Shown here: positions 2,245 through 63,404 of the stretch, piece by piece
How the letters are laid out: each line of letters starts with the position of its first letter
Numbering within the stretch: position 1 is the stretch's first letter
Source of the DNA: Patescibacteria group bacterium
Lineage (GTDB): Bacteria > Patescibacteriota > Minisyncoccia > Minisyncoccales > UBA10102
Length of the DNA: 64,000 nucleotides
Assembly: GCA_022563395.1 (NCBI GenBank)
Contig: JADFNM010000001.1
Location: forward strand, 526,342-590,341
Direction: 5' to 3'
Notes under the pieces: generated by a model
Databases searched by the model: none
Seen by the model: only the letters and a program-made list of their open reading frames with translations
Told to the model about the DNA's origin: nothing
Made by a program: the position numbers and the translations under genes

Positions 2245-2290
2245 ATGGACGGTTTGCCTGCCCGCCGAAGCCCGAGGGCGAAGGCGGGAA
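2245..2290. repeat. F2 GC-rich repeat copy (uvrB/ruvA divergent spacer)
   Basis: Contains CCCGCC...GGCGGG hairpin arms. The 11-mer GCGAAGGCGGG at 2278-2288 is identical to 41886-41896 and 59039-59049. Confidence 0.6.
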
Positions 2291-5568: not shown

Positions 5569-5985
5569 ATGAAAAAGAAAACAACAAGGGCAAAAAAGTC
5601 TACCAAAGTTGCCTCAACGGTGACCCGCCGAAGAGGCGGGAAGGTGGCGCCAAAGAAAAAGAAAAATCTAGGCCCGGGGCGCTCTTCGACCTCTCGCCGC
5701 GGAGGGCTCAAGGCACGCGCCCGCGAGAGACAAGCAGTTGTCTCTCGCCCCATCGGCAGGGTTTCTCATTATTTTGACAACATCAAGGTGGCAGCCATAA
5801 AACTCAAGGCCCCCCTAAAGAAAGGAGACACCATTCGTATTGAAGGGGGGACTACCCTGGTAAAAGTAAAGATTTCTTCAATGCAAAAGAACCACAAGCC
5901 CGTGGCCTCTGCCAAGGCCAGAGACGAGATTGGCATTAAGGTTTCAAAGAAAGTCCGTGAGGGGTACCGCGTCTTTAAGGTGTAA
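5569..5985 (+). CDS. Hypothetical protein, basic N-terminus plus C-terminal small beta-barrel (EF-Tu domain 2-like)
   Basis: 138 aa from the ATG. The C-terminal segment IGRVSHYFDNIKVAAIKLKAPLKKGDTIRIEG...GIKV..VREGYRVFKV resembles translation-factor-like barrel proteins. A GC-rich stretch with an 11-bp perfect hairpin (GCGAGAGACAA/TTGTCTCTCGC) lies in the N-terminal part. Confidence 0.55.
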   Translation: MKKKTTRAKKSTKVASTVTRRRGGKVAPKKKKNLGPGRSSTSRRGGLKARARERQAVVSRPIGRVSHYFDNIKVAAIKLKAPLKKGDTIRIEGGTTLVKVKISSMQKNHKPVASAKARDEIGIKVSKKVREGYRVFKV

Positions 5986-11570: not shown

Positions 11571-12830
11571 ATGCGAATTGTTGCTGATTTCCACATTCAC
11601 TCTCGTTTTGCGAGAGCCACCTCAAAGAGCATAAACCTGGAGAATCTTGACCTGTGGGCTAAAAAGAAGGGCATTTTAGTCATGGGGACTGGGGACTTTA
11701 CCCACCCCATGTGGATTAAAGAGTTAAAGGCAGAGCTGGAGCCAGCAGAGCAGGGTCTGCAGAAAAGAAAAGGAGGAGGAGAAACAAGGTTTGTCTTTTC
11801 TGCTGAAATCAGCTGCATCTACTCAAAGGGAGGACAGGTAAGAAAGATTCATCTTCTTTTGCTTGTTCCCTCGCTTTCTGCGGTAGAGAAAATCAACACG
11901 CAGCTTTCATGGATAGGGAATCTAAGGAGTGACGGCAGACCCATCTTGGGCATTGATGCAAAGGAAGTGGTAAAGATTGTCTTGGATGCTGACCCCTCTT
12001 CTTTGGTAGTTCCGGCTCACGCTTGGACCCCCTGGTTTTCGATATTTGGGTCAAAATCGGGATTTAACTCGCTTAGAGAATGTTTTGATGAATATACCAA
12101 GTATATCTATGCCATTGAGACCGGGCTTTCCTCAGATCCCGCAATGAATTGGAGGTTGTCTGCGTTGGATACTATCACCCTGCTTAGCAATTCAGATTCA
12201 CATTCCTTAGAAAAGATTGGAAGGGAGGTGAATGTTTTTGATACCGAACTAAGCTATCCTGCAATAAGGGAAGCTATTGTAAAGAAAGACCCAAAGAAAT
12301 TTTTGTTTACTGTTGAGTTTTTTCCCGAGGAAGGAAAATACCATTATGACGGACACCGTCTATGCAATGTTTCCCTGAGTCCAGAAGAGTCAAAAAAACA
12401 AGGAAACCAATGCCATGTATGCAAGAGGCCTTTAACCATTGGGGTATTGAACCGAGTGGCGGAGCTTGCTGATAGGCCCGCCTTCAATAAATCTTCGGCG
12501 GATAAACCAGAAGGTGCAATACCGTACAAATCCCTCATTCCTCTACAAGAAATTATTGCAGATGCACTGCACCAAGGGGTTGGCACCAAGCAAGGAAAGA
12601 CAGAGTATGAAAAGCTTATCTTGAGATTTCAAACCGAGTTTGCAGTGCTTTTAGATGCAAAGGCAGGGGAATTAAAAGAAGCAACGCTTCCTGAAATTGC
12701 AGAGGGCATTGTATGGGCGAGGGAAGGAAAGGTGCAAATTGAACCTGGGTATGACGGGGAGTTTGGCAAGATTAAGATTTTTAAAGATGACGAGCAAAAG
12801 GACAGTGCCATCCAAAAAAGTTTGTTTTGA
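11571..12830 (+). CDS. PHP-domain protein, endonuclease Q-like
   Basis: 419 aa. N-terminal PHP motif DFHIHSRFARATS...GTGDFTHP and an internal zinc-finger-like CNVS...CHVCKRPLTIGVLNRV. The architecture matches EndoQ/TIGR00375-type proteins, judged from memory. Confidence 0.6.
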   Translation: MRIVADFHIHSRFARATSKSINLENLDLWAKKKGILVMGTGDFTHPMWIKELKAELEPAEQGLQKRKGGGETRFVFSAEISCIYSKGGQVRKIHLLLLVPSLSAVEKINTQLSWIGNLRSDGRPILGIDAKEVVKIVLDADPSSLVVPAHAWTPWFSIFGSKSGFNSLRECFDEYTKYIYAIETGLSSDPAMNWRLSALDTITLLSNSDSHSLEKIGREVNVFDTELSYPAIREAIVKKDPKKFLFTVEFFPEEGKYHYDGHRLCNVSLSPEESKKQGNQCHVCKRPLTIGVLNRVAELADRPAFNKSSADKPEGAIPYKSLIPLQEIIADALHQGVGTKQGKTEYEKLILRFQTEFAVLLDAKAGELKEATLPEIAEGIVWAREGKVQIEPGYDGEFGKIKIFKDDEQKDSAIQKSLF

Positions 12831-25598: not shown

Positions 25599-25951
25599 TG
25601 GAGGTGGGGGCGGTGAAGCCCCGTCTAGAAGATATTCTACCAGTACTTCTACAGGCATAGTCCCATTGAAAGAGAAAGAAGGCGGGAATGGGACGAAGTT
25701 CTTCTTTCTTATGATTCTGTTTGTGTCGCAGCGTTCCCGAATCGCGAAACGATGCCTTTCTCGATGGTTGACACCTGTTTTGCCTATCGAGAGTCAGCAA
25801 ACAGATGGCTTACGGTATTATGCGTAGGCAAACGCCGGTTGTGCCGGCTTGAAAACGTTGGCATTTGTGGTGCCCCAGGTTTTTTTATGAGGAGCCTGGA
25901 ACCTCAGCCTGCATACTGGTGTCCTTTCCTCTATCGAAACAATTCACCCCC
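25599..25951 (-). ncRNA. ssrA: tmRNA (SsrA), one-piece
   Basis: 5' end GGGGGTGAATTGTTTCGATAG. The 3' T arm is GGGGC-TTCACC-GCCCC, followed by acceptor strand CACCTCC and discriminator A. The 7-bp acceptor has a G3:U70 pair. The tag ORF GCC AAC GTT TTC AAG CCG GCA CAA CCG GCG TTT GCC TAC GCA TAA encodes ANVFKPAQPAFAYA*. It lies directly downstream of smpB on the same strand. Confidence 0.85.
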
Positions 25952-26042
25952 GTCCTTCGCTTTCCTTCGTCAAGCTTCGGACGGCAAGCCGTTCAATGCA
26001 TAAGGGCGAAGGACGCCCTTTCAAAGCTTTAGCGAAGGAGGG
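25952..26042. repeat. F2 GC-rich repeat copy (smpB-ssrA spacer)
   Basis: A 10-bp hairpin pairs CGTCCTTCGC (25951-25960) with GCGAAGGACG (26013-26022). The 14-mer AGCTTTAGCGAAGG at 26025-26038 is identical to 41879-41892. Confidence 0.65.
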
Positions 26043-37949: not shown

Positions 37950-38019
37950 TTGATATTGCCTAAACGTGTTGATATTGCCTAAACGAGATTTAAGCATGAG
38001 TGCTTAAATCTCGTTTAGG
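37950..38019. repeat. R1 repeat copy with a tandemly duplicated left edge
   Basis: TTGATATTGCCTAAACG occurs twice, 19 bp apart (37950-37966 and 37969-37985). It is followed by the palindrome CCTAAACGAGATTTAAGCA-tgag-TGCTTAAATCTCGTTTAGG (37978-38019). Confidence 0.85.
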
Positions 38020-38036
38020 AGAACTTCGGTAGAACT

Positions 38037-39044: not shown

Positions 39045-40487
39045 ATGGCAAAGTTTTATATTACAACCGCAATCCCTTATGTGAATGCAAAGCCGCACAT
39101 TGGCCATATTTTGGATTTTGTGCAGGCAGACGTGGTTGCACGTTCTCATCGCCAGAAAGGCGAGGAGGTTTTGTTGTTGTCTGGAAGCGATGAGAATGCC
39201 TTAAAAAACGTGCAGGCAGCAGAACAGGCTGGCGTGCCAATACAACAGTTTATTGATGAGAATGCCGAGCTGTTCCGCAAACTGGCTGAAGCCCTAGGCG
39301 TGCAGTTTGATGTGTTTCAAAAAGGCAGCAATCCAAAGCACCATGAGTCCAGCCAGAAGTTATGGGAGTTGTGCAATAAGGCAGGAGATATTTACAAGAA
39401 GTCCTATGAAGGCCTCTATTGTGTTGGGTGCGAAACCTTTTATAGCCCAAACGAACTCACAGAAAATCTGGAGTGCAAAGAACATCCGGGCAAAAAGCTT
39501 GAGACTGTTTCTGAAGAAAACTACTTTTTTAAGCTCTCAAAGTATCAAGATGTATTGGTGCAACTTATTGAAAAAGATGAGCTTAAGGTTATCCCTGTTT
39601 CAAAAAAGAATGAGGTACTAGCTTTCTTAAAGCAGCCTTTACAGGATATTAGTATTTCCCGTTCCAACGAACGAGCCAAAAACTGGGGAGTTCCTGCTCC
39701 CGGAGACGATTCTCAGAGAATGTATGTTTGGTTTGATGCACTCAATATCTACCAGTCAGGCATAGGTTTCGGGTTTGATGAACAAACATACAAAAAGTGG
39801 TGGCCAGCAGATGTTCATGTGATAGGCAAGGGCATTACTCGTTTTCATGCCATTTATTGGCCGGCCTTTCTATTGTCTGCAGGCCTATCTCTTCCTAAAA
39901 CCATTTTTGTGCATGGATATATCACGGTAGATGGGCAGAAGATGTCCAAATCCTTGGGTAATGTTATCGACCCTTTTGAGTTGGTAGAAAAGTATGGCAC
40001 CGATGCCGTACGCTACTTTTTCTTGCGAGAAATTCCTTCTACGGAGGATGGCGACTTTAGCTATGAGAAGTTTGAGACTAGGTATAATGCAGACTTGGCA
40101 GGAGGATTGGGTAACCTGGTAGCAAGAGTTCTTACTATGGCAGAAAAGGCTGAGCTTAAGACTCCAGATGAGTTTTACGGCAAGGATTTCAAAGAACTTT
40201 TGTCAAAGAAAGAACAGGAAGTTTCAGAGCTTCTTGGTGATTTTCAGTTCAGCCAGGCTTTGGAGCGGATCTGGGAGGTGATTCAGTTTTGTGACAGATA
40301 CATTGAAAAGAAACGCCCCTGGGAAGAGTCTGAGAGACAGAAGGAAGTAATAGGGGATTTACTTCTTGCAGTTTCCCACATAGTTGAGCTTTTGCAGCCC
40401 TTTCTTCCCGAAACCTCAAAGAAAATCATCCAGCAACTTGAGCAAGGCAAAGGAGAGTCTCTCTTTCCCCGTCTTCGCGGGACATAG
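39045..40487 (+). CDS. metG: Methionine--tRNA ligase
   Basis: 480 aa from ATG 39045. Motifs AIPYVNAKPHIGH, the zinc knuckle CVGCETF...C, and KMSKSLGN. Confidence 0.95.
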   Translation: MAKFYITTAIPYVNAKPHIGHILDFVQADVVARSHRQKGEEVLLLSGSDENALKNVQAAEQAGVPIQQFIDENAELFRKLAEALGVQFDVFQKGSNPKHHESSQKLWELCNKAGDIYKKSYEGLYCVGCETFYSPNELTENLECKEHPGKKLETVSEENYFFKLSKYQDVLVQLIEKDELKVIPVSKKNEVLAFLKQPLQDISISRSNERAKNWGVPAPGDDSQRMYVWFDALNIYQSGIGFGFDEQTYKKWWPADVHVIGKGITRFHAIYWPAFLLSAGLSLPKTIFVHGYITVDGQKMSKSLGNVIDPFELVEKYGTDAVRYFFLREIPSTEDGDFSYEKFETRYNADLAGGLGNLVARVLTMAEKAELKTPDEFYGKDFKELLSKKEQEVSELLGDFQFSQALERIWEVIQFCDRYIEKKRPWEESERQKEVIGDLLLAVSHIVELLQPFLPETSKKIIQQLEQGKGESLFPRLRGT

Positions 40488-40510
40488 CCCGCTTCAGCGG
40501 GCGACGGCCC

Positions 40511-40554
40511 GCATATCTCCTAAATGAAATTAAAGAATCCTTAATTTCATTAAG
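40511..40554. repeat. R1 repeat copy with GCATATCTCC flank
   Basis: GCATATCTCCTAAATGAAATTAAAGAATCCTTAATTTCATTAAG. It is preceded by the small GC hairpin GCCCGC-TTCA-GCGGGC (40487-40502). Confidence 0.9.
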
Positions 40555-40566
40555 TTTTTATAGGGC

Positions 40567-40595
40567 TTGACGTATTTCTTTGTATGGTGTATATA
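40567..40595 (+). promoter_or_regulatory. Sigma70-like promoter TTGACG-N17-TATATA
   Basis: Read directly from the sequence. The ATG of a 26-codon ORF follows 8 nt after the -10 box. Confidence 0.5.
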
Positions 40596-40603
40596 GTTTT
40601 ATT

Positions 40604-40684
40604 ATGAACAATTTTCCAGCCAGGAAGTTTATTAGCATCTTGGTCTTGGACCTCCGTAAACGGTTGGGAGATTTTGTTGCATAG
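40604..40684 (+). CDS. Candidate leader peptide (26 aa, MNNFPARKFISILVLDLRKRLGDFVA)
   Basis: Short ORF between a promoter and a terminator. It covers the 5' strand of a putative antiterminator. Confidence 0.3.
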   Translation: MNNFPARKFISILVLDLRKRLGDFVA

Positions 40685-40706
40685 ATTCACCTCTTTGAAA
40701 ACAAAC

Positions 40707-40739
40707 GAAACCTCCCAACCACGGGAGGTTTCTTCTTTT
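40707..40739 (+). terminator. Intrinsic terminator with a competing upstream antiterminator
   Basis: 10-bp stem GAAACCTCCC / GGGAGGTTTC followed by TTCTTTT. GGTTGGGAG (40662-40670) is perfectly complementary to CTCCCAACC (40712-40720). Confidence 0.7.
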
Positions 40740-40828
40740 GCCCTGAAAATTGTTTATTGCGACGTAGATAATTTTCAGGCCAAAACAGTGGTCTGAGAAA
40801 AACTGTACCTTCAAGGAGAGGGAAAGCG

Positions 40829-41017
40829 ATGGAGTCTAGGGATCCCGTTCTTATACAGAGGTTTGGTAATCAAGTCTCAGAGGTTGAAAGTCTTCGGCGT
40901 AAATCACAACGCCCAGGACTCTCTCTTCATCAACGGAAAGGCCTTGGGTTTCACTTACAACGCGCAGAAAGAAACATGCAACACACCAGAGACCTGCTGG
41001 GGTCTAGTCTTCCTTAG
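40829..41017 (+). CDS. Orphan 62-aa basic ORF (doubtful)
   Basis: The SD AAGGAG lies 11 nt upstream, and a terminator lies at 41045-41075. No recognisable motif. The region could instead be non-coding RNA. Confidence 0.25.
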   Translation: MESRDPVLIQRFGNQVSEVESLRRKSQRPGLSLHQRKGLGFHLQRAERNMQHTRDLLGSSLP

Positions 41018-41044
41018 GGGCATGTTTTTTCTCCTTACGAGGAA

Positions 41045-41075
41045 GGGCTCGCCTAAAAAGCGAGCCCACTTTTTT
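41045..41075 (+). terminator. Intrinsic terminator
   Basis: Stem GGGCTCGC / GCGAGCCC with loop CTAAAAA, followed by ACTTTTTT. Confidence 0.75.
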
Positions 41076-41081
41076 AGCTCA

Positions 41082-41090
41082 TGGTACAAT
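41082..41090 (+). promoter_or_regulatory. Extended -10 box TGgTACAAT, 6 nt upstream of the tatD ATG
   Basis: TGGTACAAT, then gtggat, then ATG at 41097. Confidence 0.5.
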
Positions 41091-41096
41091 GTGGAT

Positions 41097-42035
41097 ATGC
41101 TAATAGATACCCACGGACACGTCAACTTTGCCGCTTTCAAGAATGACGCAAAAGAGGTTCTGCACCGTACCTTGAAAGGAGATACCTGGGTTATAATGCC
41201 AGGCACCCAGTATGCTACCTCAAAGAAAGCAGTAGAAATGGCAGAGCAGTATAGAGAAGGAGTGTATGCCGCAATTGGTCTGCACCCTATTCATCTTTCA
41301 GAAAAGCGCAAGGTTGATGTATTGGAAGTGCAGTCAGAAAACACCAAGGAGGAAGAATGGATGACCTTTGAAACACAAGAGGAGGAGTTTTTGTATGAAA
41401 AGTACAAAGAATTGGGACAAAGCAAAAAGGTGGCGGCAGTCGGTGAGTGCGGCCTGGATTATTACTATGAACCAAAGAGCAAAGAAAGAAGAGAAGCTCA
41501 ACGGCGTAAACAAAAGGCAGCGCTTGCCTTGCAACTGAAGTTGGCAGACGAGCTAAACTTGCCGATTATTTTCCATTGCCGCAAGGCACATGATGATTTG
41601 ATTGAATTTCTAACAAACTACAAACTACAAACTAAAAATTTGAGAGGTGTCGTGCACTGCTACACTGGAGACTTAAAACAGGCAGAGCAGTTCTACAATA
41701 TTGGCCTCTCTTTTGGGTTTAACGGCCTTATTTTCAAAGATGTTCCTGCGCTTCCCAATCCAAAGGAGATTATTGGAGCTTTACCCTTGGAGCGAATTGT
41801 TCTGGAAACTGATTCTCCCTACTTACTGCCGCCCTTGCCCGCCGACCCGGCCTCCGTAGCCACTTCGGCGAAGGGGGCAGCTTTAGCGAAGGCGGGACAG
41901 GCAGGACGCAACGAACCCCTGTTTGTAAAATATGTAGCAGAGGAGATAGCTCGTATTAAAGGTATCTTAGTAGACGAAGTTTCCTCTGCGACAACCAAAA
42001 ACGCCAAAGCCTTATTTCGCTTAAATGAGATTTAG
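41097..42035 (+). CDS. tatD: TatD family metal-dependent deoxyribonuclease/hydrolase
   Basis: 312 aa from ATG 41097 (the track ORF from 40863 is an upstream extension). Motifs IDTHGH, GECGLDYY, HCR, VHCYTG and ETDSPYL. It contains an F2 insertion, and its stop codon lies in an R1 copy. Confidence 0.9.
   Translation: MLIDTHGHVNFAAFKNDAKEVLHRTLKGDTWVIMPGTQYATSKKAVEMAEQYREGVYAAIGLHPIHLSEKRKVDVLEVQSENTKEEEWMTFETQEEEFLYEKYKELGQSKKVAAVGECGLDYYYEPKSKERREAQRRKQKAALALQLKLADELNLPIIFHCRKAHDDLIEFLTNYKLQTKNLRGVVHCYTGDLKQAEQFYNIGLSFGFNGLIFKDVPALPNPKEIIGALPLERIVLETDSPYLLPPLPADPASVATSAKGAALAKAGQAGRNEPLFVKYVAEEIARIKGILVDEVSSATTKNAKALFRLNEI
41832..41906. repeat. F2 GC-rich repeat copy, in frame within tatD (75 nt)
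   Basis: Encodes PLPADPASVATSAKGAALAKAGQAG between the conserved SPYLLP and RNEP. It contains GCGAAGGCGGG (41886-41896) and AGCTTTAGCGAAGG (41879-41892). Confidence 0.7.
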
Positions 42036-42061
42036 GTGTGGATAACTAAATCTCGTTTAAG
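42020..42061. repeat. R1 repeat copy (tatD / mutY-like convergent junction)
   Basis: CTTAAATGAGATTTAGG-tgtggataa-CTAAATCTCGTTTAAG. The tatD stop TAG (42033-42035) lies inside the left arm. Confidence 0.85.
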
Positions 42062-42066
42062 CGAGA

Positions 42067-42932: not shown

Positions 42933-45344
42933 ATGACGCGCTACGAGCATGAGAAAATAGAGGCAAAGTGGCAGAAACGCTGGGAGAAAAAGAAGGCCTG
43001 GGAGGTGGATTTGGACAAGGCAAAAAAGCCCTACTATAACTTAATGATGTTCCCCTATCCTTCAGCAGAGGGGCTGCATGTAGGGAATGTCTATGCCTTT
43101 ACCATCTCTGACATTCATGGAAGGTTCCGCAGAATGCAGGGATATGATGTGTTTGAGCCCATGGGGTTTGATGCCTTTGGCATTCATTCAGAAAACTTTG
43201 CCATTAAACAGGGGACGCACCCAAAAGAGCAGACTGCAAAGAACATTACGCACTTCACAAAACAGCTCAAGCAATTGGGAGCTCTTTTTGATTGGCAAAG
43301 AGCAGTTATTACCAGTGACCCCGAATACTACAAATGGACCCAGTGGCTGTTTGTGCAACTCTACAAAGCAGGTCTGGCATATAAGGGGAAAGCCCCTGTT
43401 GACTGGTGTCCTTCTTGCAAGACCGTGCTGGCAGATGAGCAGGTTATAGAAGGGCAATGCGAACGATGTGACACTCAGGTTGTGCAAAAGGAATTGGAGC
43501 AGTGGTTTTTTCGCATTACCAAGTATGCGGACCGCCTATTAAAAAACTTGGAGTGGATTGACTGGACCGAAAAGACCAAACTCGCGCAAAGAAACTGGAT
43601 TGGAAAGGCAGAAGGCACAACCATAAAATTCAAAGTTCCCAATTCCAAGCATGAGGTTGAAGTCTTTACGACGCGTGCCGATACGCTTTACGGCGCAACG
43701 TTTATTGTTTTAGCACCAGAACACCCCATGGTAGCTTCCCTCCAAAACTCAAAAGAGGTTCAAAAGTATGTAGAGAAATCAAAGCAGAGAACCGAACTGG
43801 AAAGAAAAGCCGAGGAAAAAGAAAAAACAGGCGTTTTCTCGGGCCTGTACGCGATAAACCCGCTCAACAAGGAAAAAATTCCTGTTTGGATTGCTGATTA
43901 TGTGTTAATGGGTTATGGAACAGGTGCCTTGTTTGGAGATGCTCACGACGAGCGTGATGTCGAATTTGCTAGAAAGTATAACATTCCACTCAAACCCACC
44001 GTAATCACAGGAGATAAAGAGAAAGACCGGAAGATCTTAAGCCTTGAAGAATGTTTTACAGGTTATGGCACCTTAGTGGACTCTGGTCCATTTACAGGCT
44101 TGACCTCAAAGGAAGCAATAGCAAAAGTGATGGAGTGGCTTATCAGGAAAGGACAGGGCGGGCGGAAAGTAACGTACCACCTCAGAGATTGGCTTATCTC
44201 TCGTCAGCGCTACTGGGGGTCTCCCATCCCTATTATCTATTGCGCAAAATGCGGCACGGTTCCGGTTCCAGAAAAAGACCTTCCGGTAAAGTTACCCGAG
44301 GTAAAGGATTTTCGACCTTCTGGCACGGGTAAGTCGCCCTTGGCTTCCGTTGCGAGCTTTGTGAAAACCAAGTGCCCTCAATGTAAAGGGCCAGCTGAGA
44401 GGGAAACAGATGTTTCAGACACGTTTTTAGATTCAGCCTGGTATTTTTTCCGCTATCCCTCAACCGAGTTTAAAACAAAACCTTTTGATAAGGTAAGGGT
44501 AAAGAAGTGGCTTCCTGTGAATATGTACATTGGAGGGCACGAGCACGCTGTCTTGCACCTCTTGTACACCAGATTCATTACTATGGCCCTAAAAGACATG
44601 GGACACATTTCTTTTGAGGAACCCTTTGAGAAATTCCGCGCCCACGGTTTAATCACCAAAGGCGGGGTAAAGATGTCCAAATCCAGAGGGAACGTGGTGA
44701 ACCCAGACGAGTACTTTGTAAAGTACGGCGCAGACACGGTGCGTACCTATTTAATGTTTCTGGGTCCTCTGGCAGATGGGGGAGGTTGGTCAGACAGGGG
44801 AATCGTTGGCATCTCCCGGTTTTTCAACCGTCTCTGGGTATTTGTGCCTAAATCTCGTTTAGGAGATCCTAAACGAGATTTAGGAAATGAGGCCTTGCGG
44901 CATAGAACAATCAAGAAAGTTACTGAAGACCTAGAGAATCTGCGATATAACACCGCAATTGCAGCTTGCATGGAATATTTTAATGCCCTTCAAAAATCCA
45001 GCAATCCAACAAAAGAAGAGACAGATACTTTACTCATTCTTCTTTCGCCTTTTGCCCCTCATTTAACGCAAGAACTCTGGGAAAAACTTGGCAACAAGGG
45101 AAGTGTGCATGACCAACCTTGGCCAAAGCATGACCCAAAGGCATTGCAGGAAAAAGTTGTTCGGCTTGTGGTACAGGTGAATGGAAGAGTCAGAGAAGTT
45201 CTTTTAGTTTCTCCCGGCATTTCAGAAAAGGAGGCTGTTGCTCGGGCGCTGCAGCAAGAAAAGGTAAAGAAATGGTTCCCCACGGGAAAGCCAAAGAACG
45301 TGGTGTTTGTGAAAGGAAGATTACTAAATCTTGTATCGTATTAA
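42933..45344 (+). CDS. leuS: Leucine--tRNA ligase
   Basis: 803 aa. Motifs MFPYPSAEGLHVGN, a CP1 editing domain, and VKMSKSRGN. Confidence 0.95.
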   Translation: MTRYEHEKIEAKWQKRWEKKKAWEVDLDKAKKPYYNLMMFPYPSAEGLHVGNVYAFTISDIHGRFRRMQGYDVFEPMGFDAFGIHSENFAIKQGTHPKEQTAKNITHFTKQLKQLGALFDWQRAVITSDPEYYKWTQWLFVQLYKAGLAYKGKAPVDWCPSCKTVLADEQVIEGQCERCDTQVVQKELEQWFFRITKYADRLLKNLEWIDWTEKTKLAQRNWIGKAEGTTIKFKVPNSKHEVEVFTTRADTLYGATFIVLAPEHPMVASLQNSKEVQKYVEKSKQRTELERKAEEKEKTGVFSGLYAINPLNKEKIPVWIADYVLMGYGTGALFGDAHDERDVEFARKYNIPLKPTVITGDKEKDRKILSLEECFTGYGTLVDSGPFTGLTSKEAIAKVMEWLIRKGQGGRKVTYHLRDWLISRQRYWGSPIPIIYCAKCGTVPVPEKDLPVKLPEVKDFRPSGTGKSPLASVASFVKTKCPQCKGPAERETDVSDTFLDSAWYFFRYPSTEFKTKPFDKVRVKKWLPVNMYIGGHEHAVLHLLYTRFITMALKDMGHISFEEPFEKFRAHGLITKGGVKMSKSRGNVVNPDEYFVKYGADTVRTYLMFLGPLADGGGWSDRGIVGISRFFNRLWVFVPKSRLGDPKRDLGNEALRHRTIKKVTEDLENLRYNTAIAACMEYFNALQKSSNPTKEETDTLLILLSPFAPHLTQELWEKLGNKGSVHDQPWPKHDPKALQEKVVRLVVQVNGRVREVLLVSPGISEKEAVARALQQEKVKKWFPTGKPKNVVFVKGRLLNLVSY
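44847..44885. repeat. R1 repeat copy, in frame within leuS (perfect 17-bp arms)
   Basis: CCTAAATCTCGTTTAGG-agat-CCTAAACGAGATTTAGG is translated as PKSRLGDPKRDLG. Confidence 0.9.
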
Positions 45345-45345
45345 A

Positions 45346-45380
45346 CTTAATGAAATTAAGGAATCCTTAATTTCATTAAG
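45346..45380. repeat. R1 repeat copy (perfect 35-bp palindrome), flank supplies the glmS SD
   Basis: CTTAATGAAATTAAGGAATCCTTAATTTCATTAAG is followed by GAGATATTCAT-ATG. The sequence AAGGAG ends 8 nt before ATG 45392. Confidence 0.9.
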
Positions 45381-57969: not shown

Positions 57970-60066
57970 TTATACTGATTTTTTCTTTTTTTGCAAACCA
58001 GAACACCCTTTATTAGAGCACTTAATTGTGTCTTTTGTGCCTTGTACCAGCAAACTTCCACAGTTTTTGCATATTTCTCCCGTGGGTTTGTACCATAGGG
58101 CATAATCGCAGTCAGGATACTGATTACAGGCATAGAATATCTTGCCTCGACGAGTTCGTTTTTCCACTAATTCACCCTTCTTACACTTGGGACAAATAAT
58201 GTCTAGAGACCTTGGTTTGTTCTTTTCTAAGGGCTCCGTGTGCCGGCATTCAGGGAACTTAGAGCAGGCATAGAACTTGCCGTACCTACCAAAACGTATC
58301 ACTATAGGGGCTCCACACTCTGGGCAGTCCTTGTCTTTAACAACTTCCACCAGGTCTTTTTTTTGAACCTCCTCATACTTTTTTTGAAGGTTCACGTCAA
58401 AGGGCTTGTAGAATTCTTGTAGCATGGGAACCCAGTCTTTTTTTCCCTCTGCAATATCGTCTAAGCCCTCTTCCATATTTGCAGTAAACTTTAGGTCCAC
58501 GATGTCGGGGAAATGTTGCATTAAGAGATCGTTAACTGTAGTTCCAAGCTCGGTGGGAAACAGTCTTCTTTTCTCGTCTTTTTCCACATATCCTCTTTCT
58601 TGAATGGTAGAGAGAGTAGGAGCGTAGGTTGAGGGTCTTCCGATGCCGTGTTCTTCCAAGATTTTAATTAAAGAGGCCTCCGTGTATCTTGCAGGGGGTT
58701 GGGTGAAGTGCTGCAAGGAAAGCAGTTCTTTTAAAGAAAGGATATCTCCTTTTTGCATTGTGGGGAGGTCTGCTTCCTCAAACTTCATTTCATATACCTT
58801 AAGATATCCTTCAAATTTCAACATCTGTCCTGTTACGCGAAAGATGTAATTACCCCCTCCAGAGGCGGGTCCGCCTTTGGCAGAAGCCAGAATATCTATA
58901 CTGGTAGCATCTACCAGCGCAGAAGACATTTGAGAAGCAATGAACCTTTGCCAAACAAGTTCATACAGTTTTAACTTGGGGCCCACGAGACCCGAGGATT
59001 CAAGAGTTGCAAAGGCGGGCTTGCCCGTCGAAGCCTTGGCGAAGGCGGGGCGTATTGCTTCATGCGCTTCTTGGGCACCCCGGGATTTGGTTTTGAAGGT
59101 TCTCTGAAAGCCTGGCCAGTAATTTTTACCGTAGGTTTTCTGGATAAACGCTTTTGCAGAACTCAAAGAAAGTTGGGATAGATTCAAAGAGTCTGTTCTA
59201 TGATAGGTAATGAGTCCTTGCTCGTATAACTGCTGGGCAAGCTGCATGGTAAACTTTGCTGGGAAATGGAACTTTTGTCCCGCGGCCTGTTGCAGTGTGG
59301 AGGTGGTAAAAGGAGGCAGGGGATTTCGTTTCACTTCTTTTCGCTCAACTTCCTGGACCTTGTATTCTGCTTTTTTGAGATCCTTTAAAATTGCATCTGC
59401 TTCTTTCTTGTCTTGGATGCCGAGCTTTTCGAAGATTTTTTCTCCTCTTTTTTGCAATATGGCTCTGAACACTTTCTTTTCTTTTTGAAGGTCAGCTTCA
59501 ATGCTCCAATATTCTTGCGCCTTGAATTTTTTAATTTCCTGTTCTCGGTCAGCTAAAATTCTGACTGCAACAGACTGTACCCTTCCGGCTGATAATCCTC
59601 TTGAAACCTTTTTCCAAAGAAAAGGAGAAAGTTTGTATCCTACCAGTCTATCTAATATTCTCCTTGCCTGCTGGGCATTTACTCGGTCTTCATCAATTTT
59701 CCGCGGGTTTTTTAGTGCTTCCTGAATGGCGGGTTTGGTAATCTCATGGAACACAATACGTTCTGGCTCTTTTAACTCCAGGATTTCAGCCAAATGCCAG
59801 GCAATGGCTTCACCTTCTCGGTCTTCATCTGTTGCCAGGATTACCTTTTTTGCCTTCTTTGCAGCATTTTTTAAAGAGGTGACTGTCTTTCTTGCCTTGG
59901 TGGGGATGACATAGGTTGGCTCAAAGTCTTTTTCAACATCAATGCCAAGCTTCCCTTTTGGAAGGTCTCTTATGTGTCCAAACGAAGACTGCACGTTATA
60001 TTCTTTTCCCAAGAAGCCCTCCAAGGTTCTCGCTTTTGTTGGTGATTCTACTATGACAAGGCGCAT
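57970..60066 (-). CDS. topA: DNA topoisomerase I
   Basis: 698 aa. Toprim MRLVIVESPTKA...DEDREGE, active-site region TYHRTDS, and C-terminal Cys4 zinc ribbons (CPECG..C, CPKC..C, C.NCG..C). Confidence 0.95.
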   Translation of the reverse strand: MRLVIVESPTKARTLEGFLGKEYNVQSSFGHIRDLPKGKLGIDVEKDFEPTYVIPTKARKTVTSLKNAAKKAKKVILATDEDREGEAIAWHLAEILELKEPERIVFHEITKPAIQEALKNPRKIDEDRVNAQQARRILDRLVGYKLSPFLWKKVSRGLSAGRVQSVAVRILADREQEIKKFKAQEYWSIEADLQKEKKVFRAILQKRGEKIFEKLGIQDKKEADAILKDLKKAEYKVQEVERKEVKRNPLPPFTTSTLQQAAGQKFHFPAKFTMQLAQQLYEQGLITYHRTDSLNLSQLSLSSAKAFIQKTYGKNYWPGFQRTFKTKSRGAQEAHEAIRPAFAKASTGKPAFATLESSGLVGPKLKLYELVWQRFIASQMSSALVDATSIDILASAKGGPASGGGNYIFRVTGQMLKFEGYLKVYEMKFEEADLPTMQKGDILSLKELLSLQHFTQPPARYTEASLIKILEEHGIGRPSTYAPTLSTIQERGYVEKDEKRRLFPTELGTTVNDLLMQHFPDIVDLKFTANMEEGLDDIAEGKKDWVPMLQEFYKPFDVNLQKKYEEVQKKDLVEVVKDKDCPECGAPIVIRFGRYGKFYACSKFPECRHTEPLEKNKPRSLDIICPKCKKGELVEKRTRRGKIFYACNQYPDCDYALWYKPTGEICKNCGSLLVQGTKDTIKCSNKGCSGLQKKKKSV
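58985..59055. repeat. F2 GC-rich repeat copy, in frame within topA
   Basis: The plus-strand text contains GCGAAGGCGGG (59039-59049). On the coding strand it encodes PAFAKASTGKPAFATLESSG, just after the conserved EAHEAIRP. Confidence 0.6.
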
Positions 60067-61439: not shown

Positions 61440-63404
61440 CTACGTTGGCTGCCCTTTTCTTTTGAGTTTTTCTACCGCATCACTCAACATTTGGCAATAT
61501 AAGTTTAAACCGACGGCGTTCATGTTGCCGGATTGTTCCTTTCCCAGAATGTTTCCTGCTCCTCTAATCTCCATGTCCCGCAGGGCAATCTTGTACCCAG
61601 AACCAAGCTCTCCTGCCTCTTTTAAAGCTTGCAATCTGAGCTTTGCCTTGTCTGTGAGTTTTGCGCCGTGCAGGAAGTAAGCAAAAGATTCTGTGTGTGA
61701 CCTTCCAATGCGTCCCCTAATCTGGTAGGCCTGGGAAAGCCCCAACTTTGTTGCGTCTTCCACAATTAAGGTATTCACATTGGGAAGATCCAGCCCATTT
61801 TCAATAATGGTGGTGGCAAGCAGAATATCATATTTCCTTTGCTGGAAATCCTCCATGACGCGTACCATTTCTTTTTCTGGAAGCCTGCCGTGTATAATTC
61901 CAATCTTTGCTTTGGGCAGAAGCTTTTGCAAAGCTTTCTTTACCATGCCAATGGTCCCAACCCGGTTGTGGAGGTAATAGACCTGCCCGCCTCGCTTAAG
62001 CTCTCTTTCTATTGCTTCTTTTACGATCTTGCTGTTCCTTTTTTGCACAGACATTTGAACCGGAAACCTTCCCTCGGGGGGCGTCTGTACCATACTCATA
62101 CCTTTCAAAGAAGACAAAGACATATACAGGGTTCTTGGGATGGGGGTTGCAGAAAGGGAGAGTACGTCCAGAGAAGTTCTAAGTTCTCGCAGCTTTTCTT
62201 TTTGCTTCACCCCAAATCTTTGCTCGTCGTCAATGATAAGAAGGCCGAGGTTTTTGAACTTCACGTCCGAGGAAAGAAGCCGGTGAGTCCCAACAATAAT
62301 GTCTACCTTCCCCTCCTGTATTTCCTGCAGAATCTCTTCTTGTTCTTTTTTTGTTTGCAGGCGCGAGAGCAACTGCACTTTTAAGGGAAGATCTTTTAAA
62401 CGTTCTTTGAAGTTCTGGAAATGTTGGTGAGCCAAAATGGTGGTAGGGGAAAGCATTGCTGCTTGGTACCCTTGTTCTGTTGCATGGACCATGGTGCGCA
62501 AGGCAATCTCTGTTTTGCCAAACCCTACGTCTCCCAATACGATTCTGTCCATGGGTTCTTCTTTTGAGAGGTCTTGCTCAATATCCTTTAGTGCTTGGAG
62601 CTGGTCTGGCGTTTCTTGGTAGGGGAAAGAAGACGCCACCCTGCGCGAAAGTTCGTCTGGAGGATTGTAGGAAGGCCTTAAAGAAACCTCCCTTGCGGCA
62701 TACAGCTCTAAGAGTTCTCTTGCGAGTTTCTCTACCTCTTCTCTGATTCTTCGTTTGGTCTTTATCCAAAAAGGAGAACCCAGACGGGATACCTTGGGTT
62801 CTCTGAAGCCAACATATCTTGAGAGCTTTTTTTCCAATCCTTTGGGCAAAAAGAGCTTGTCTCCTGCTGCATATTCAAGAATATAGTAGGGCTGTTCTCG
62901 TATTTCTGTAATGCCTGTGAACTTTGCTACCCCATGGTCTAGGTGCACCACGTACTCATTTTCTTTAAGTCCGGTAATGTCTGAAAATGCCCTTTGGGAC
63001 TGGAGGCGCTTTTTGAGAACTGCGAGGGAAGATTTTTCCTCTGTGGTAACGGGAAGTTCTTCTATCTCTTCAATCTTGTTTCCTATAAACTCAATTCGCA
63101 GGGCATTCTTTCTGCTTAAAGGGAATACCTCTACGGTTCCACCCTGGTGTGAAAACTCTCCGGGATCTCTAACCCCAAACACCTTCTCATATCCCAGTTC
63201 GTCCAACCGCCTCAAAAGGGGGGTCAGACCCCCCTTTGAGCCTTGTTCTAGGAGCAGGGTGTTTTCCTGGAAAAAGGGTTGGGTCTGTCGTGCCTTGAGA
63301 ATGCGAGAAAAGTTTTCTTCAAACCAAAGCCACCCCTTTTCTACAAAGTATGGGGTGATAGCTACTATTAATACTCTATTGATTGATTTGGATGTTAGTG
63401 GCAT
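61440..63404 (-). CDS. mfd: Transcription-repair coupling factor Mfd (shortened form)
   Basis: 654 aa from ATG 63404 (a GTG at 63464 is possible). RNAP-interacting domain EYVVHLDHGVAKFTGI, SF2 helicase motifs GDVGFGKTE, DDEQRFG, SATPIPRT, and the TRG region. The protein ends soon after the translocase module, so there is no D7. Confidence 0.85.
   Translation of the reverse strand: MPLTSKSINRVLIVAITPYFVEKGWLWFEENFSRILKARQTQPFFQENTLLLEQGSKGGLTPLLRRLDELGYEKVFGVRDPGEFSHQGGTVEVFPLSRKNALRIEFIGNKIEEIEELPVTTEEKSSLAVLKKRLQSQRAFSDITGLKENEYVVHLDHGVAKFTGITEIREQPYYILEYAAGDKLFLPKGLEKKLSRYVGFREPKVSRLGSPFWIKTKRRIREEVEKLARELLELYAAREVSLRPSYNPPDELSRRVASSFPYQETPDQLQALKDIEQDLSKEEPMDRIVLGDVGFGKTEIALRTMVHATEQGYQAAMLSPTTILAHQHFQNFKERLKDLPLKVQLLSRLQTKKEQEEILQEIQEGKVDIIVGTHRLLSSDVKFKNLGLLIIDDEQRFGVKQKEKLRELRTSLDVLSLSATPIPRTLYMSLSSLKGMSMVQTPPEGRFPVQMSVQKRNSKIVKEAIERELKRGGQVYYLHNRVGTIGMVKKALQKLLPKAKIGIIHGRLPEKEMVRVMEDFQQRKYDILLATTIIENGLDLPNVNTLIVEDATKLGLSQAYQIRGRIGRSHTESFAYFLHGAKLTDKAKLRLQALKEAGELGSGYKIALRDMEIRGAGNILGKEQSGNMNAVGLNLYCQMLSDAVEKLKRKGQPT

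What the first reader, a model, noticed from the sequence alone, without database searches (positions are those of the whole stretch)
41832..41906. Second repeat family (F2, GC-rich) inserted in frame in tatD as a 25-codon Ala/Pro/Gly-rich segment
Between the conserved TatD blocks ETDSPYLLP and RNEP lies 75 nt of strikingly GC-rich sequence. It encodes PLPADPASVATSAKGAALAKAGQAG.
- It contains the 11-mer GCGAAGGCGGG, which is also present at 2278-2288 (intergenic) and 59039-59049 (topA).
- It contains the 14-mer AGCTTTAGCGAAGG, which is also present at 26025-26038 (smpB-ssrA spacer).
- Its ends can pair (CCCGCC 41838-41843 with GGCGGG 41891-41896).

From memory, E. coli-type TatD proteins have only about 3 residues between PYL.P and RG..N.P, so this is an insertion. 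The length is a multiple of three.
Basis: partly seen in the sequence, partly recalled or inferred. Interest (0 to 1): 0.65.

Follow-up and report, generated by a model that had tools for sequence, protein, structure and literature searches.

The report
Mobile GC-rich hairpin repeat inside tatD
A short GC-rich hairpin-forming DNA repeat, present as two nested copies, sits in frame in a surface loop of the TatD nuclease gene of a tiny uncultured bacterium. The same repeat also occurs inside other genes of this genome, in unrelated bacteria and in viral contigs.

Summary
Window 41832-41906 is 71-73% GC in a 45% GC genome and is read in frame inside a genuine tatD gene (41097-42035).

Compared with sister lineages, the true insertion is 41835-41897 (63 nt). 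Six resident bases were lost, so the net gain is 19 codons, not 25.

It is composite. A 30-nt unit (CTTG head plus a 26-nt hairpin) occupies the same position as in a relative, L083. A second 33-nt unit is nested inside it.

The unit is stem / GWA / GCY-TT-RGC / GAA / stem. It recurs about 9 times in the window, including inside topA and another ORF. It also occurs in other Patescibacteria, in an Acidobacteriota helicase gene, in at least 120 metagenome contigs (GC 0.31-0.73) and in 72 viral-contig stretches. Its stems covary.

In 37 of 119 TatD orthologues this same loop carries a palindromic insert: F2 in two reading frames, or one of two other palindromes. These are scattered over the tree, with empty and filled sites in sister sequences.

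The insert is predicted to be a disordered loop, and the TatD fold is otherwise intact.

Best reading: a REP/RPE-like selfish hairpin element tolerated in a permissive loop. The way it moves is unknown, and no RAYT transposase was found.

The parts
41097..42035 (+). tatD coding sequence (312 aa plus stop), the host gene
   Evidence: ORF list. Pfam TatD_DNase 3.4e-65. 5099 homologues with E <= 1e-10. The AF2 model (pLDDT 84) matches PDB TatD structures.
41835..41897 (+). Inserted DNA relative to the basal PP|QAG.. loop: 63 nt = 21 codons (LPADPASVATSAKGAALAKAG). Two resident codons downstream (xE before RNEP) are missing, so the net gain is 19 aa.
   Evidence: Codon-level comparison with L082, L083, L085-L087, L089, L282 and L283. 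PDB alignments break here. Residues 245-268 have pLDDT < 50.
41834..41845 (+). Outer F2 unit, 5' part: head CTTG, left arm CCCGCC, then GA
   Evidence: Matches L083 (CTTGCCCGTCGA...) at the identical codon position. The head CTTG/CCTG is found 5' of 29 of 80 metagenome copies.
41846..41878 (+). Nested inner unit, 33 nt: CCCG + GCCTCC GTA GCC ACTTC GGC GAA GGGGGC
   Evidence: Model R1 hit at 41850-41878, 20 bits, E = 0.024, although this unit was not a seed. It has the same stem / GTA / GCC-loop-GGC / GAA / stem layout. It is absent from the otherwise matching L083 element.
41879..41896 (+). Outer F2 unit, 3' part: AGC TTTA GC GAA GGCGGG (apical hairpin, GAA, right arm)
Evidence: 17 of 18 nt are identical to the L086 tatD insert and to window 26025-26042.
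41898..41906 (+). Resident loop codons CAG GCA GGA (QAG).
   Evidence: Basal orthologues read PP-QAGxE-RNEP.
2257..2288 (+). Intergenic F2 copy (head CCTG plus a 28-nt hairpin) between uvrB and ruvA
   Evidence: R1 35.5 bits (seed). Sequence. Neighbouring genes.
59009..59049 (+). F2 copy (59024-59049, head CTTG at 59020-59023) plus a partial copy (59009-59019). They lie inside topA (57970-60066, minus strand) and are read on the opposite strand as RPAFAKASTGKPAFA.
   Evidence: R1 41.2 bits (seed). Translation. It is an 8-aa insertion relative to most of 120 TopA orthologues and to solved TopA structures.
12477..12502 (-). F2 copy inside ORF 11571-12830 (+), read as RPAFNKSSADKP
   Evidence: R1 28.4 bits, E = 1.8e-4, not a seed. 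Translation. The ORF has no Pfam match.
25950..26042 (.). Two F2-like hairpins (25950-25984 on the minus strand, 26017-26042 on the plus strand) in the smpB-ssrA spacer
   Evidence: R1 25.7 and 31.1 bits. tmRNA at 25596-25951. SmpB at 26043-26489.
40468..40501 (-). F2-like hairpin overlapping the 3' end of metG (stop at 40487), about 600 nt upstream of tatD
   Evidence: R1 18.1 bits, E = 0.07. Palindrome GCCCGCTTCAGCGGGC.
5624..5640 (+). Minimal F2-like hairpin CCCGCC GAAGA GGCGGG inside ORF 5560-5985
   Evidence: R1 20.5 bits, E = 0.018. Context.
63215..63237 (.). A different GC palindrome (F3: AAAGGGGGGTCAGACCCCCCTTT), in frame in an Mfd/TRCF-like gene (61440-63464, minus strand; read KGGLTPLL). 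This is the type that fills the TatD loop in other lineages.
   Evidence: TatD P0064 reads KGGQTPLL, and L082 carries ATAGCGGGGTCAGACCCCGCTAT.

Best explanation
The segment is two nested copies of a short, non-autonomous, REP/RPE-like hairpin repeat (F2). The consensus is gcYTG-YCCKCC-GWA-GCY-TT-RGC-GAA-GGMGGR.

**Proposed history**
- One 30-nt unit landed between the Pro-Pro and Gln-Ala codons of the loop that follows the metal-binding ETD motif of TatD.
- A second 33-nt unit later landed inside the first.
- Six resident bases were lost.

**Why it persists**
- Both units are multiples of three and stop-free in this frame, so the gene stays open.
- The element is translated into a flexible Ala/Gly/Pro/Lys-rich loop on the surface of an otherwise intact TIM-barrel nuclease.
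- It persists because it is tolerated, not because TatD needs it.

**What is shown**
- The insertion and its in-frame state.
- The family, its hairpin covariation, and its dispersal within this genome, other phyla and viral contigs.
- Repeated, independent occupation of this loop.
- Empty and filled sites in sister lineages.
- A low-confidence predicted loop.

**What is inferred**
- That copies spread as DNA. I favour a single-strand hairpin intermediate handled by a trans-acting HUH/Y1-type enzyme or by replication copy-choice.
- That the peptide is translated.
- That the effect on the enzyme is near neutral.
For: **Family membership**
- Model R1 finds 8 sites with E < 0.1 in 64 kb, six of them non-seeds. 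The split outer tatD unit makes about 9 copies in all.
- In 1.3 Mb of control loci from other bacteria there are only 4 hits of 27 bits or more, all in Patescibacteria MAGs. One lies in the same TatD loop of a 47%-identical orthologue.

**Hairpin covariation in 80 metagenome copies**
- The outermost pair, which the search pattern did not constrain, is T-A 33, C-G 33, other Watson-Crick 4, non-Watson-Crick 10 (chi-square p = 9e-27).
- Stem pair 3: G-C 46, T-A 23, G-A 11, T-C 0.
- Apical pair: C-G 52, T-A 21, mismatched 7.

**Dispersal**
- At least 120 metagenome contigs, GC 0.31-0.73.
- 16 of the 80 fetched contigs carry 2 or more copies.
- There is no shared neighbouring gene.
- 72 stretches in viral contigs, with one contig carrying 5 copies.
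- In-frame copies lie in real UvrA, DnaE-like, IleRS, GatB, kinase and AddA genes. The AddA host is Vicinamibacterales-like, and only 1 of 120 homologues carries the copy.

**Recurrence in TatD**
- 37 of 119 orthologues carry an insert in this loop: F2 frame c 13, F2 frame b 9, F3 palindrome 14, F4 2. P0034, which carries both F3 and F2 frame b, is counted in both classes.
- Insert types are scattered on the neighbour-joining tree.
- Three sister genes, 85-87% identical in DNA, are empty, F2 frame c (a clean 30 nt) and F2 frame b.
- Only the two stop-free forward frames are seen.

**A second gene shows the same behaviour**
- In topA, F2 appears in both orientations at neighbouring positions in different lineages.

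**Structure**
- Residues 245-268 have pLDDT < 50, while the rest of the model matches TatD structures.
- Downstream RNEP and the C-terminal helices are invariant or conserved.

**Precedent**
- Intragenic REPs and RPEs, many of them in DNA-repair genes and tRNA-synthetase genes (PMC3733652; PMC10969869).
Against: - No transposase was identified. tblastn with 7 RAYT/TIRYT proteins found nothing in 2.76 Mb of session DNA, which included about 1 Mb around F2 copies (positive control).
- No target-site duplication or clean universal boundary is visible.
- In 98 kb from five other Wildermuthbacteria-like genomes, the only F2 hits are the tatD inserts themselves. For those genomes a tatD-specific process cannot be excluded.
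- The folding energy is not better than that of shuffled sequence.
- Near-identity of a 24-nt core across phyla is unusual for REPs, which are normally lineage-specific. It hints at a constraint I have not identified.
- Translation and neutrality are untested.
- One of the five model seeds is an artificial splice of the two outer halves of the tatD element, and the model's E-values are rough.
Confidence: 0.6

Rival explanations
1. There is no transposition. Hairpins are copied into the loop by replication template switching or ectopic gene conversion from other F2 copies. The process is primed by microhomology, because the resident codons ..TTG GTN CCG CC.. (L-V-P-P) resemble the 5' end of F2 (CTTG-YCCGCC). 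The hotspot therefore reflects target mimicry rather than an enzyme's site preference.
For: - Junctions sit next to CCGCC-like resident codons in tatD (PP) and topA (R-P: CGC CCC GCC).
- In L086 the resident Pro-Ser codons CCC TCC themselves form the left arm, and only about 18 nt are added.
- Boundaries vary, and resident codons are often replaced rather than simply interrupted (L082, L283).
- There is no target-site duplication, no transposase and no common neighbouring gene.
- At the tatD site F2 is always in the forward orientation.
Against: - The L083 insertion is a clean 30-nt unit that brings its own head and its own left arm, rather than using the resident CCGCC.
- Many copies in unrelated contexts share a conserved unpaired 5' head, as transposase-recognised hairpins do.
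- Spread into viral contigs and across phyla is easier to explain with an active mobilisation system.
- No local rise in identity between the window and L083 that would indicate conversion between lineages.
Confidence: 0.2
2. The insert is adaptive at the protein level. Lineages repeatedly acquire a flexible Ala/Gly/Lys-rich flap next to the active site (the loop after the last barrel strand) to modify TatD substrate access or partner binding. Hairpin repeats are merely the raw material.
For: - 31% of orthologues carry an insert exactly here.
- The loop follows the metal-ligand motif ETD by 6-7 residues, so by the general TIM-barrel rule it lies on the catalytic face. This is established knowledge and was not measured here.
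- Loop length also varies among solved TatD families.
- Inserts are maintained in frame, and one has grown by a second insertion.
Against: - The inserts encode unrelated peptides (ALAKEG, ARRSxxEGG, IAGSDPAM, PPRQLAGG), determined by the frame of a DNA palindrome and not by a conserved protein motif.
- Sister lineages lack the insert.
- The same elements occur in many unrelated genes, in intergenic DNA and in both orientations.
- The segment is modelled with pLDDT < 50.
Confidence: 0.1
3. The hairpin acts in the mRNA, for example as a pause, cleavage, stability or protein-binding site. The CUUG/UUUA tetraloop plus tandem G.A internal loop is a structured RNA motif, and its presence in tatD regulates expression.
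For: - C-G to U-A covariation of the apical pair fits the known CUUG-type tetraloop geometry (tetraloop knowledge is from memory).
- Seven metagenome copies are followed by a T-run and look like intrinsic terminators, two of them directly after a tmRNA or tRNA-like 3' end.
- In the window, copies lie in the smpB-ssrA spacer and at the end of metG.
Against: - There is no T-run after the tatD copy.
- Copies inside genes occur in both orientations relative to transcription (topA, and ORF 11571-12830).
- No Rfam family matches.
- The folding energy is not exceptional.
- Presence or absence among sister lineages argues against a required regulatory role.
Confidence: 0.07
4. The segment is not translated. 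It is either removed from the message or bypassed by the ribosome, like the GC-rich 'byp' elements of yeast mitochondria, or it is an assembly artefact.
For: It is a GC-rich hairpin inside a coding region, superficially like mitochondrial GC clusters. One related contig (L088) ends inside its insert, which shows that assemblers break at these repeats.
Against: - All 37 insert-bearing orthologues are multiples of three and stop-free.
- The forward frame that contains a stop (CCG CCG TAG / CTT TAG) is never the one used.
- The inserts come from independent assemblies: ENA, JGI, NCBI and Logan.
- The window's own protein is on two contigs.
Confidence: 0.03

Closest known systems
Rickettsia palindromic elements (RPEs)
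   Same: Selfish palindromic repeats inserted in frame into unrelated housekeeping genes. They are translated as extra surface segments compatible with the fold, and also occur in intergenic DNA (PMC10969869).
   Different: RPEs are about 100-150 bp, restricted to Rickettsia, and encode a conserved peptide per family. F2 units are 26-33 nt, are read in at least four frames or orientations, occur in several phyla and in viral contigs, and can nest. There is no sequence similarity.
Intragenic REPs of the GTAG/CGTC-tagged superfamilies (Di Nocera et al. 2013, PMC3733652)
   Same: Palindromes of 20-40 bp, dispersed, as singletons and dimers. Some lie wholly within ORFs and encode 20-30 aa. They are notably frequent in DNA-repair and replication genes (uvrA, uvrB, uvrD, dnaE) and in tRNA-synthetase genes. 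The REPs in the recB genes of two Xanthomonas species lie at about the same site. F2 hosts here include tatD, topA, uvrA, a dnaE-like gene, addA and ileS.
   Different: - Tagged REPs carry an unpaired GTAG or CGTC at one end. F2 has a CYTG head, and its GTAG/GAAG lies in the internal loop.
- No F2-type peptide or DNA word occurs in that paper's text or supplements.
- No RAYT was found.
- About half of the window's copies are in coding sequence.
REPINs mobilised by RAYT (HUH/Y1) transposases; IS200/IS605 hairpin ends
   Same: An imperfect hairpin with a short conserved unpaired 5' tail, no target-site duplication, and head-to-head and tandem dimers. This is the architecture recognised on single-stranded DNA by Y1 transposases (established knowledge).
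   Different: No cognate enzyme was identified, no cleavage site is defined, and the core sequence is shared across phyla rather than specific to one RAYT.
Mitochondrial GC clusters, byp elements, repetitive hairpin-forming elements, and coding palindromes (e.g. PMC2800124, PMC6649704)
   Same: GC-rich hairpins that invade AT-richer compact genomes, including coding regions, with nested and repeated insertions.
   Different: Those are organellar. Byp elements are bypassed by the ribosome and need not be in frame. Here every insert keeps the frame.
Terminator-like mobile repeats (e.g. SPRITE of pneumococcus, listed in PMC10969869)
   Same: Some F2 copies are a hairpin plus a T-run placed at the 3' ends of genes or RNA genes.
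   Different: The tatD copy has no T-run and lies inside a coding region.

Membership tests
TatD_DNase (host gene) | Pfam PF01026 match above the curated cut-off and a TIM-barrel metallo-hydrolase fold | tested here: met
   220 bits against a cut-off of 27. Foldseek to 1j6o, 6l25, 1yix and 2gzx gives E = 1e-19 to 1e-20 and a target-normalised TM-score of 0.82-0.87.
TatD_DNase (host gene) | Conserved metal-ligand and motif residues kept on both sides of the insert | tested here: met
   Invariant in 27 aligned sequences: H6, H8, E117, H160, H187, D239, R271, N272, E273, P274.
REP (repetitive extragenic palindrome), tagged superfamilies | Short (20-40 bp) imperfect palindrome | tested here: met
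   A 26-29 nt hairpin with 6 + 2-3 base pairs. Covariation in 80 copies.
REP (repetitive extragenic palindrome), tagged superfamilies | Many dispersed copies in one genome | tested here: met
   About 9 copies in 64 kb, and 16 of 80 metagenome contigs with 2 or more copies. Not met in 98 kb of five related genomes.
REP (repetitive extragenic palindrome), tagged superfamilies | Unpaired GTAG or CGTC tag at one end of the hairpin | tested here: not met
   The 5' tail is CTTG (18) or CCTG (11) of 80 copies. G(T/A)AG sits inside the internal loop.
REP (repetitive extragenic palindrome), tagged superfamilies | Predominantly extragenic location | tested here: not met
   5 of about 9 window copies lie within ORFs: tatD (2), topA, ORF 11571-12830, and ORF 5560-5985.
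REP/REPIN-RAYT system | A cognate RAYT (Y1 HUH transposase) gene in the genome, usually flanked by REPs | tested here: inconclusive
   There was no tblastn hit (E <= 1e-3) with 7 RAYT/TIRYT queries in 2.76 Mb of fetched DNA. However, only 64-69 kb of this genome is available.
Rickettsia palindromic elements | In-frame insertion in protein-coding genes, compatible with the fold | tested here: met
   The frame is kept. The insert has pLDDT < 50 and is flanked by a confident barrel.
Rickettsia palindromic elements | About 100-150 bp elements of the ten RPE sequence families, in Rickettsia | tested here: not met
   Units are 26-33 nt and the host is a Wildermuthbacteria-like patescibacterium. RPE size is taken from PMC10969869.
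MITE | Terminal inverted repeats of a parent IS plus a target-site duplication | tested here: not met
   The whole element is a single hairpin. The clean filled/empty pair L083/L282 shows no duplication.
Translational bypass (byp) elements or intervening sequences | Inserts need not preserve the frame or be free of stops | tested here: not met
   All 37 insert-bearing orthologues are in frame and stop-free. This carries an ascertainment caveat, because only intact ORFs were retrieved.
Intrinsic terminator | GC hairpin followed by a T-run | tested here: not met
   The tatD copy is followed by ACAGGCAGGACGC. Other copies do have T-runs.
Any Rfam family | Match to a curated covariance model | tested here: not met
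   No hit with E <= 1 on 41830-41900 or at the F2 positions of 10 loci.

The most novel reading that the evidence does not exclude
F2 may be a previously undescribed pan-bacterial mobile hairpin. It would be a 26-30 nt element whose core is nearly identical in Patescibacteria, Acidobacteriota, many unidentified soil and groundwater bacteria, and viral contigs.

On this reading it colonises protein-coding genes in frame and nests within itself. It would spread by a mechanism that is not the known RAYT/REP system: either copy-choice primed by target mimicry, or an unrecognised enzyme.

The cross-phylum conservation would then reflect recognition by a universal host factor. One possible hint is that F2 shares the 12-mer UGGCGAAGGCGG with a universally conserved 16S rRNA segment.
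Probability: 0.3. Interest if true: 0.75.

Novelty: new variant of a known kind. Interest (0 to 1): 0.55.

Why it matters
- **Repeat proliferation in a streamlined genome.** Ultra-small Patescibacteria genomes (about 89% coding in this window by crude ORF calling) still carry proliferating hairpin repeats. With little intergenic space, the repeats are absorbed into the surface loops of essential proteins. That makes them a steady source of protein length variation and low-complexity loops.
- **A practical annotation point.** Odd Ala/Gly/Pro/Arg-rich segments in CPR proteins (ALAKEG, ARRSxxEGG, SAFAKASADK, IAGSDPAM) should be read as repeat DNA, not as functional motifs. Assemblies also break at them.
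- **A rare natural experiment.** The TatD loop offers many filled/empty allele pairs and several element types at one site. From these, the insertion mechanism and its fitness cost could be measured.
- **An unexplained conservation.** The near-identity of the 24-nt core across phyla and viral contigs is not explained by what is known about REPs.

Tried and rejected
- **Genome-contig scan with a TatD alignment.** The 80 loci were reused as negative controls.
- **MAFFT alignment of the inner unit.** MAFFT could not place the inner unit correctly, so it was left out of the model seeds. It then served as an independent test.
- **Folding-energy z-scores.** Not significant, so not used as evidence.
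- **The 14-mer alone.** Not significant.
- **Rfam at gathering and E-value thresholds.** No family matched.
- **Literature search by sequence.** GCGAAGGCGG returns only 16S rRNA sequences, and the F2 13-mers return nothing relevant. Searches combining CPR with REP/RAYT found no paper linking them.
- **Supplements of the REP survey.** No F2-type peptides or words.
- **PLSDB plasmids.** Only partial matches at E about 0.3-0.9.
- **RAYT/TIRYT tblastn.** Nothing found.
- **All-against-all comparison of ORFs around 80 F2 copies.** No recurrent neighbour, so no candidate transposase.
- **Test for recent recombination between the window and L083.** Flanking identity was not raised.
- **Rejected without further work.** Diversity-generating retroelement targeting was rejected because the changes are indels of palindromes, not A-specific substitutions. 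An intein or intron was rejected because the segment is too short and always in frame.
Full report
**1. Observation**

Window 41832-41906 reads CCCTTGCCCGCCGACCCGGCCTCCGTAGCCACTTCGGCGAAGGGGGCAGCTTTAGCGAAGGCGGGACAGGCAGGA. These bases are codons 246-270 of an ORF whose Met start is at 41097. They encode PLPADPASVATSAKGAALAKAGQAG.

- GC is 0.71-0.73 here against 0.455 for the window.
GCGAAGGCGGG with up to 1 mismatch occurs 8 times against 0.86 expected, and 0 of 100 shuffles reach 8.
- The 14-mer shared with 26025 is real but not significant alone.
- The folding energy of the insert is ordinary for such GC-rich sequence (z = -1.5 as RNA, -0.4 as DNA).

The case therefore rests on homology and covariation, not on thermodynamics.

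**2. The host gene and the size of the insertion**

The ORF is a genuine TatD-family hydrolase.
- Pfam scores 3.4e-65.
- The AlphaFold model has mean pLDDT 84 and superposes on solved TatD structures with a target-normalised TM-score of 0.82-0.87.

The closest named relatives are Candidatus Wildermuthbacteria and Paceibacterota MAGs. The window comes from a 68.6-kb metagenome scaffold.

In 119 orthologues the distance between PYL and RNE is 8 residues in 82 cases, typically xPP-QAGKE. Sequence alignments to solved structures break exactly at the insert: query 248->269 against 222->225 in 1j6o.

At codon level the window reads PP-[21 codons, 41835-41897]-QAG-RNEP. Two resident codons are missing, so the net gain is 19 aa. 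Residues 245-268 are modelled with pLDDT < 50, while both flanks are confident.

**3. Anatomy: two nested hairpin units**

Relative L083 (P0081) has a clean 30-nt insertion at the identical position: CCGCC|CTTG CCCGTC GAA GC TTTA TC GAA GGAGGG|GCAAGC. Its sister L282 (85% DNA identity) is empty there: ATG CCG CCA CAA GCC.

The window has the same element (CTTG CCCGCC GA ... AGC TTTA GC GAA GGCGGG), interrupted after GA by 33 nt. Those 33 nt, CCCG GCCTCC GTA GCC ACTTC GGC GAA GGGGGC (41846-41878), have the same layout.

I built covariance model R1 from four real copies plus one artificial splice of the outer halves. It detects the inner unit, which was not a seed, at E = 0.024. An analogous nested arrangement occurs in metagenome locus L102.

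**4. A dispersed family in this genome**

R1 hits in the window:
- 59024-59049, inside topA on the opposite strand, read RPAFAKAS
- 2261-2288, intergenic
- 26017-26042 and 25950-25984, in the smpB-ssrA spacer
- 12477-12502, inside ORF 11571-12830, read RPAFNKSSADKP
- 5624-5640
- 41850-41878
- 40468-40501, at the end of metG

That is about 9 copies in 64 kb, roughly half of them in coding sequence.

In 1.3 Mb of loci from 80 other genomes only 4 hits reach 27 bits. All are in Patescibacteria MAGs. L005 carries two in its own tatD, one of them in the same loop, read LARRSPKGEGS.

In 98 kb from five other Wildermuthbacteria-like genomes the only hits are the tatD inserts themselves. F2 abundance therefore differs between genomes.

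**5. The TatD loop is a recurrent landing site**

Of 119 orthologues, 37 have a longer loop, and every one is a translated palindrome:
- F2 in frame c (xALAKEG, EVLTKAG): 13
- F2 in frame b (ARRSxxEGG): 9
- A different palindrome, F3 (ATAGCGGGGTCAGACCCCGCTAT, read IAGSDPAM, KGVSDTP or KGGQTPLL): 14
- F4 (CCCGCCAGCTGGCGGG, read PPRQLAGG): 2
- P0034 carries both F3 and F2 frame b and is counted in both classes.

The third forward frame of F2 contains a stop and is never seen.

The types are scattered over a neighbour-joining tree, with sisters differing. One trio at 85-87% DNA identity is empty, F2 frame c and F2 frame b.

F3 also sits in frame in the window's Mfd-like gene (63215-63237). F4 also sits in metG of L087. 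Other TatD loops collect inserts too, for example after query residue 83.

**6. The same behaviour in a second gene**

Among 120 TopA orthologues the basal sequence is HEAIRPTDVQKTPESL. The window and three relatives have AFAKAS[TA][GD]KP[AT]FAT inserted after IRP. Other lineages carry F2 a few residues away, in either orientation: PSAFAKASADK..., IALAKEDK.... A second topA site (window AKGGPASGGG) is also a hotspot.

**7. The family is far wider than this phylum**

An exact-pattern scan (CCKYCGWAGCYTTRGCGAAGGMGG) hit at least 120 metagenome contigs, with contig GC from 0.31 to 0.73. It also hit 72 stretches of IMG/VR viral contigs, one contig holding 5 copies.

Covariation is strong in 80 copies:
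- The pair just outside the pattern, which is unconstrained: T-A 33, C-G 33, other Watson-Crick 4, non-Watson-Crick 10 (p = 9e-27).
- Stem pair 3: G-C 46, T-A 23, G-A 11, T-C 0.
- Apical pair: C-G 52, T-A 21, mismatched 7.

Further properties:
- A 5' head CTTG/CCTG precedes 29 of 80 copies.
- Sixteen contigs have 2 or more copies, as tandem or head-to-head dimers.
- No gene recurs near them.
- Real host proteins with in-frame copies include UvrA, a DnaE-like polymerase, IleRS (twice), GatB, a Ser/Thr kinase, a glycoside hydrolase, an FHA-CpaF ATPase and an AddA/UvrD helicase.
- The AddA/UvrD host's relatives are Vicinamibacterales (Acidobacteriota). Only 1 of 120 homologues has the copy.
- Seven copies are followed by T-runs. 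Two sit directly after a tmRNA or tRNA-like 3' end and look like terminators.

**8. Mechanism**

Shown: the insertion, its composite hairpin nature, the family, its dispersal, and repeated independent occupation of a permissive loop.

Inferred, as my preferred explanation: F2 is a non-autonomous REP/RPE-like element that spreads as DNA. It survives in tatD because the 30- and 33-nt units keep the frame and fall in a disordered surface loop.

The loop follows the metal-ligand Asp of ETD by a few residues. By the general rule for TIM barrels it is therefore on the catalytic face. I could not measure distances, because model coordinates are not exposed.

The mobilising activity is unknown. No RAYT/TIRYT homologue was found in 2.76 Mb of fetched DNA (control), and there is no target-site duplication.

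A serious rival is copy-choice or gene conversion primed by target mimicry.
- The resident TTG GTN CCG CC (L-V-P-P) resembles the F2 5' end.
- In L086 the resident CCC TCC serves as the left arm.
- The topA junction also lies on CGC CCC GCC.

**9. Comparison with known systems**

The closest precedents are Rickettsia palindromic elements (PMC10969869) and the intragenic REPs catalogued by Di Nocera et al. (PMC3733652). The latter are likewise enriched in DNA-repair genes and tRNA-synthetase genes, and in one case (recB of two Xanthomonas species) lie at about the same site.

F2 works like these but fails defining features of both:
- It lacks a terminal GTAG/CGTC tag.
- It is not mainly extragenic.
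- It is far shorter than RPEs.
- No RAYT was found.

No Rfam family matches. I found no paper giving its sequence or describing such elements in Patescibacteria.

**10. Verdict**

The phenomenon belongs to a known kind, palindromic repeats tolerated inside genes. It differs in three unusual ways: an extremely small nested unit, a multi-type hotspot with many filled/empty pairs, and a core conserved across phyla and viral contigs. Interest 0.55.

Noticed in passing
window 42014-42064, and also 2890-2934, 3510-3557, 7466-7510, 11511-11555, 26587-26631, 30316-30356, 37972-38022, 40510-40554, 45336-45380, 50997-51041: An AT-rich palindrome family (CTCCTAAATGAAATTAAGGAATCCTTAATTTCATTTAGGAG and variants) lies at many gene ends. 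One copy is immediately after the tatD stop and one is after metG.
   Followed up: partly
window 50748-50961: This is the strongest GC island of the window (GC up to 0.78), with many nested hairpins. The overlapping 95-aa ORF has no Pfam match, and no Rfam family reaches significance. It may be an unannotated structured RNA gene.
   Followed up: partly
window 5659-5765 (inside ORF 5560-5985, just after tRNA-Arg 5446-5520): A second GC island (0.77) contains the long hairpin GCGAGAGACAAGCAGTTGTCTCTCGC. The ORF has only a sub-threshold EF-Tu domain 2 hit. It is unclear whether this is coding sequence with inserted repeats or an RNA.
   Followed up: no
window 40488-41096 (metG-tatD spacer), hairpin 40707-40732; L085 9632-9652; L087 9647-9672 and 8555-8579: The 600-nt spacer upstream of tatD holds a hairpin, GAAACCTCCC...GGGAGGTTTC, that recurs upstream of tatD in other Wildermuthbacteria-like loci. 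The only Rfam match is a sub-threshold Phe_leader hit (31 bits against 55). It may be a conserved leader or small RNA.
   Followed up: partly
window 63215-63237 (Mfd/TRCF-like gene 61440-63464, minus strand): The perfect palindrome AAAGGGGGGTCAGACCCCCCTTT is translated as KGGLTPLL at the start of the UvrB-interaction domain. It is the same palindrome type that fills the TatD loop in other lineages (KGGQTPLL, IAGSDPAM).
   Followed up: partly
window about 58840-58875 (topA residues about 396-405): A second GC-rich insertion in topA (AKGGPASGGG) lies at a site where many orthologues carry unrelated inserts (NPAPYRTEGSGAG, SRDGPASGGKN, and longer ones).
   Followed up: partly
TatD orthologues, opposite window residues 83-84 and 106-111 (about 41343-41430): Further insertion hotspots exist in TatD relatives (APLETGRLG, PAPHRGSGE, ALRQTQ, LSEAANGR). 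L005 has a second F2 copy (LRSLGEGG) just before the AIGE.GLDYY motif. The window's gene is empty at these sites.
   Followed up: partly
F2 core (e.g. window 41885-41896, 59038-59049): The 12-mer TGGCGAAGGCGG of F2 is identical to a universally conserved 16S rRNA segment. A literature search for GCGAAGGCGG returns almost only 16S sequences. This could be coincidence or a clue to what constrains the element.
   Followed up: no
L154 12-35 and L165 2336-2361; window 25950-26042: In two metagenome contigs an F2 hairpin plus T-run follows directly after a tmRNA or tRNA-like 3' end (..CTCCACC). In the window, F2-like hairpins lie on the other side of ssrA, between smpB and ssrA.
   Followed up: partly
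L088 (contig of P0067), 3' end: This contig ends inside its tatD insert, and the sequence diverges there. Assemblies evidently break at these repeats, so truncated 'TatD' proteins in databases may be assembly artefacts.
   Followed up: yes
L087 6648-6663 and 10761-10776: The same PvuII-site palindrome ((T/C)CCGCCAGCTGGCGG(A/G)) lies in frame in both metG and tatD of one Wildermuthbacteria-like genome. A related CCAGCCAGCTGGCTGG is in the window's M16 peptidase gene (36061-36076).
   Followed up: no
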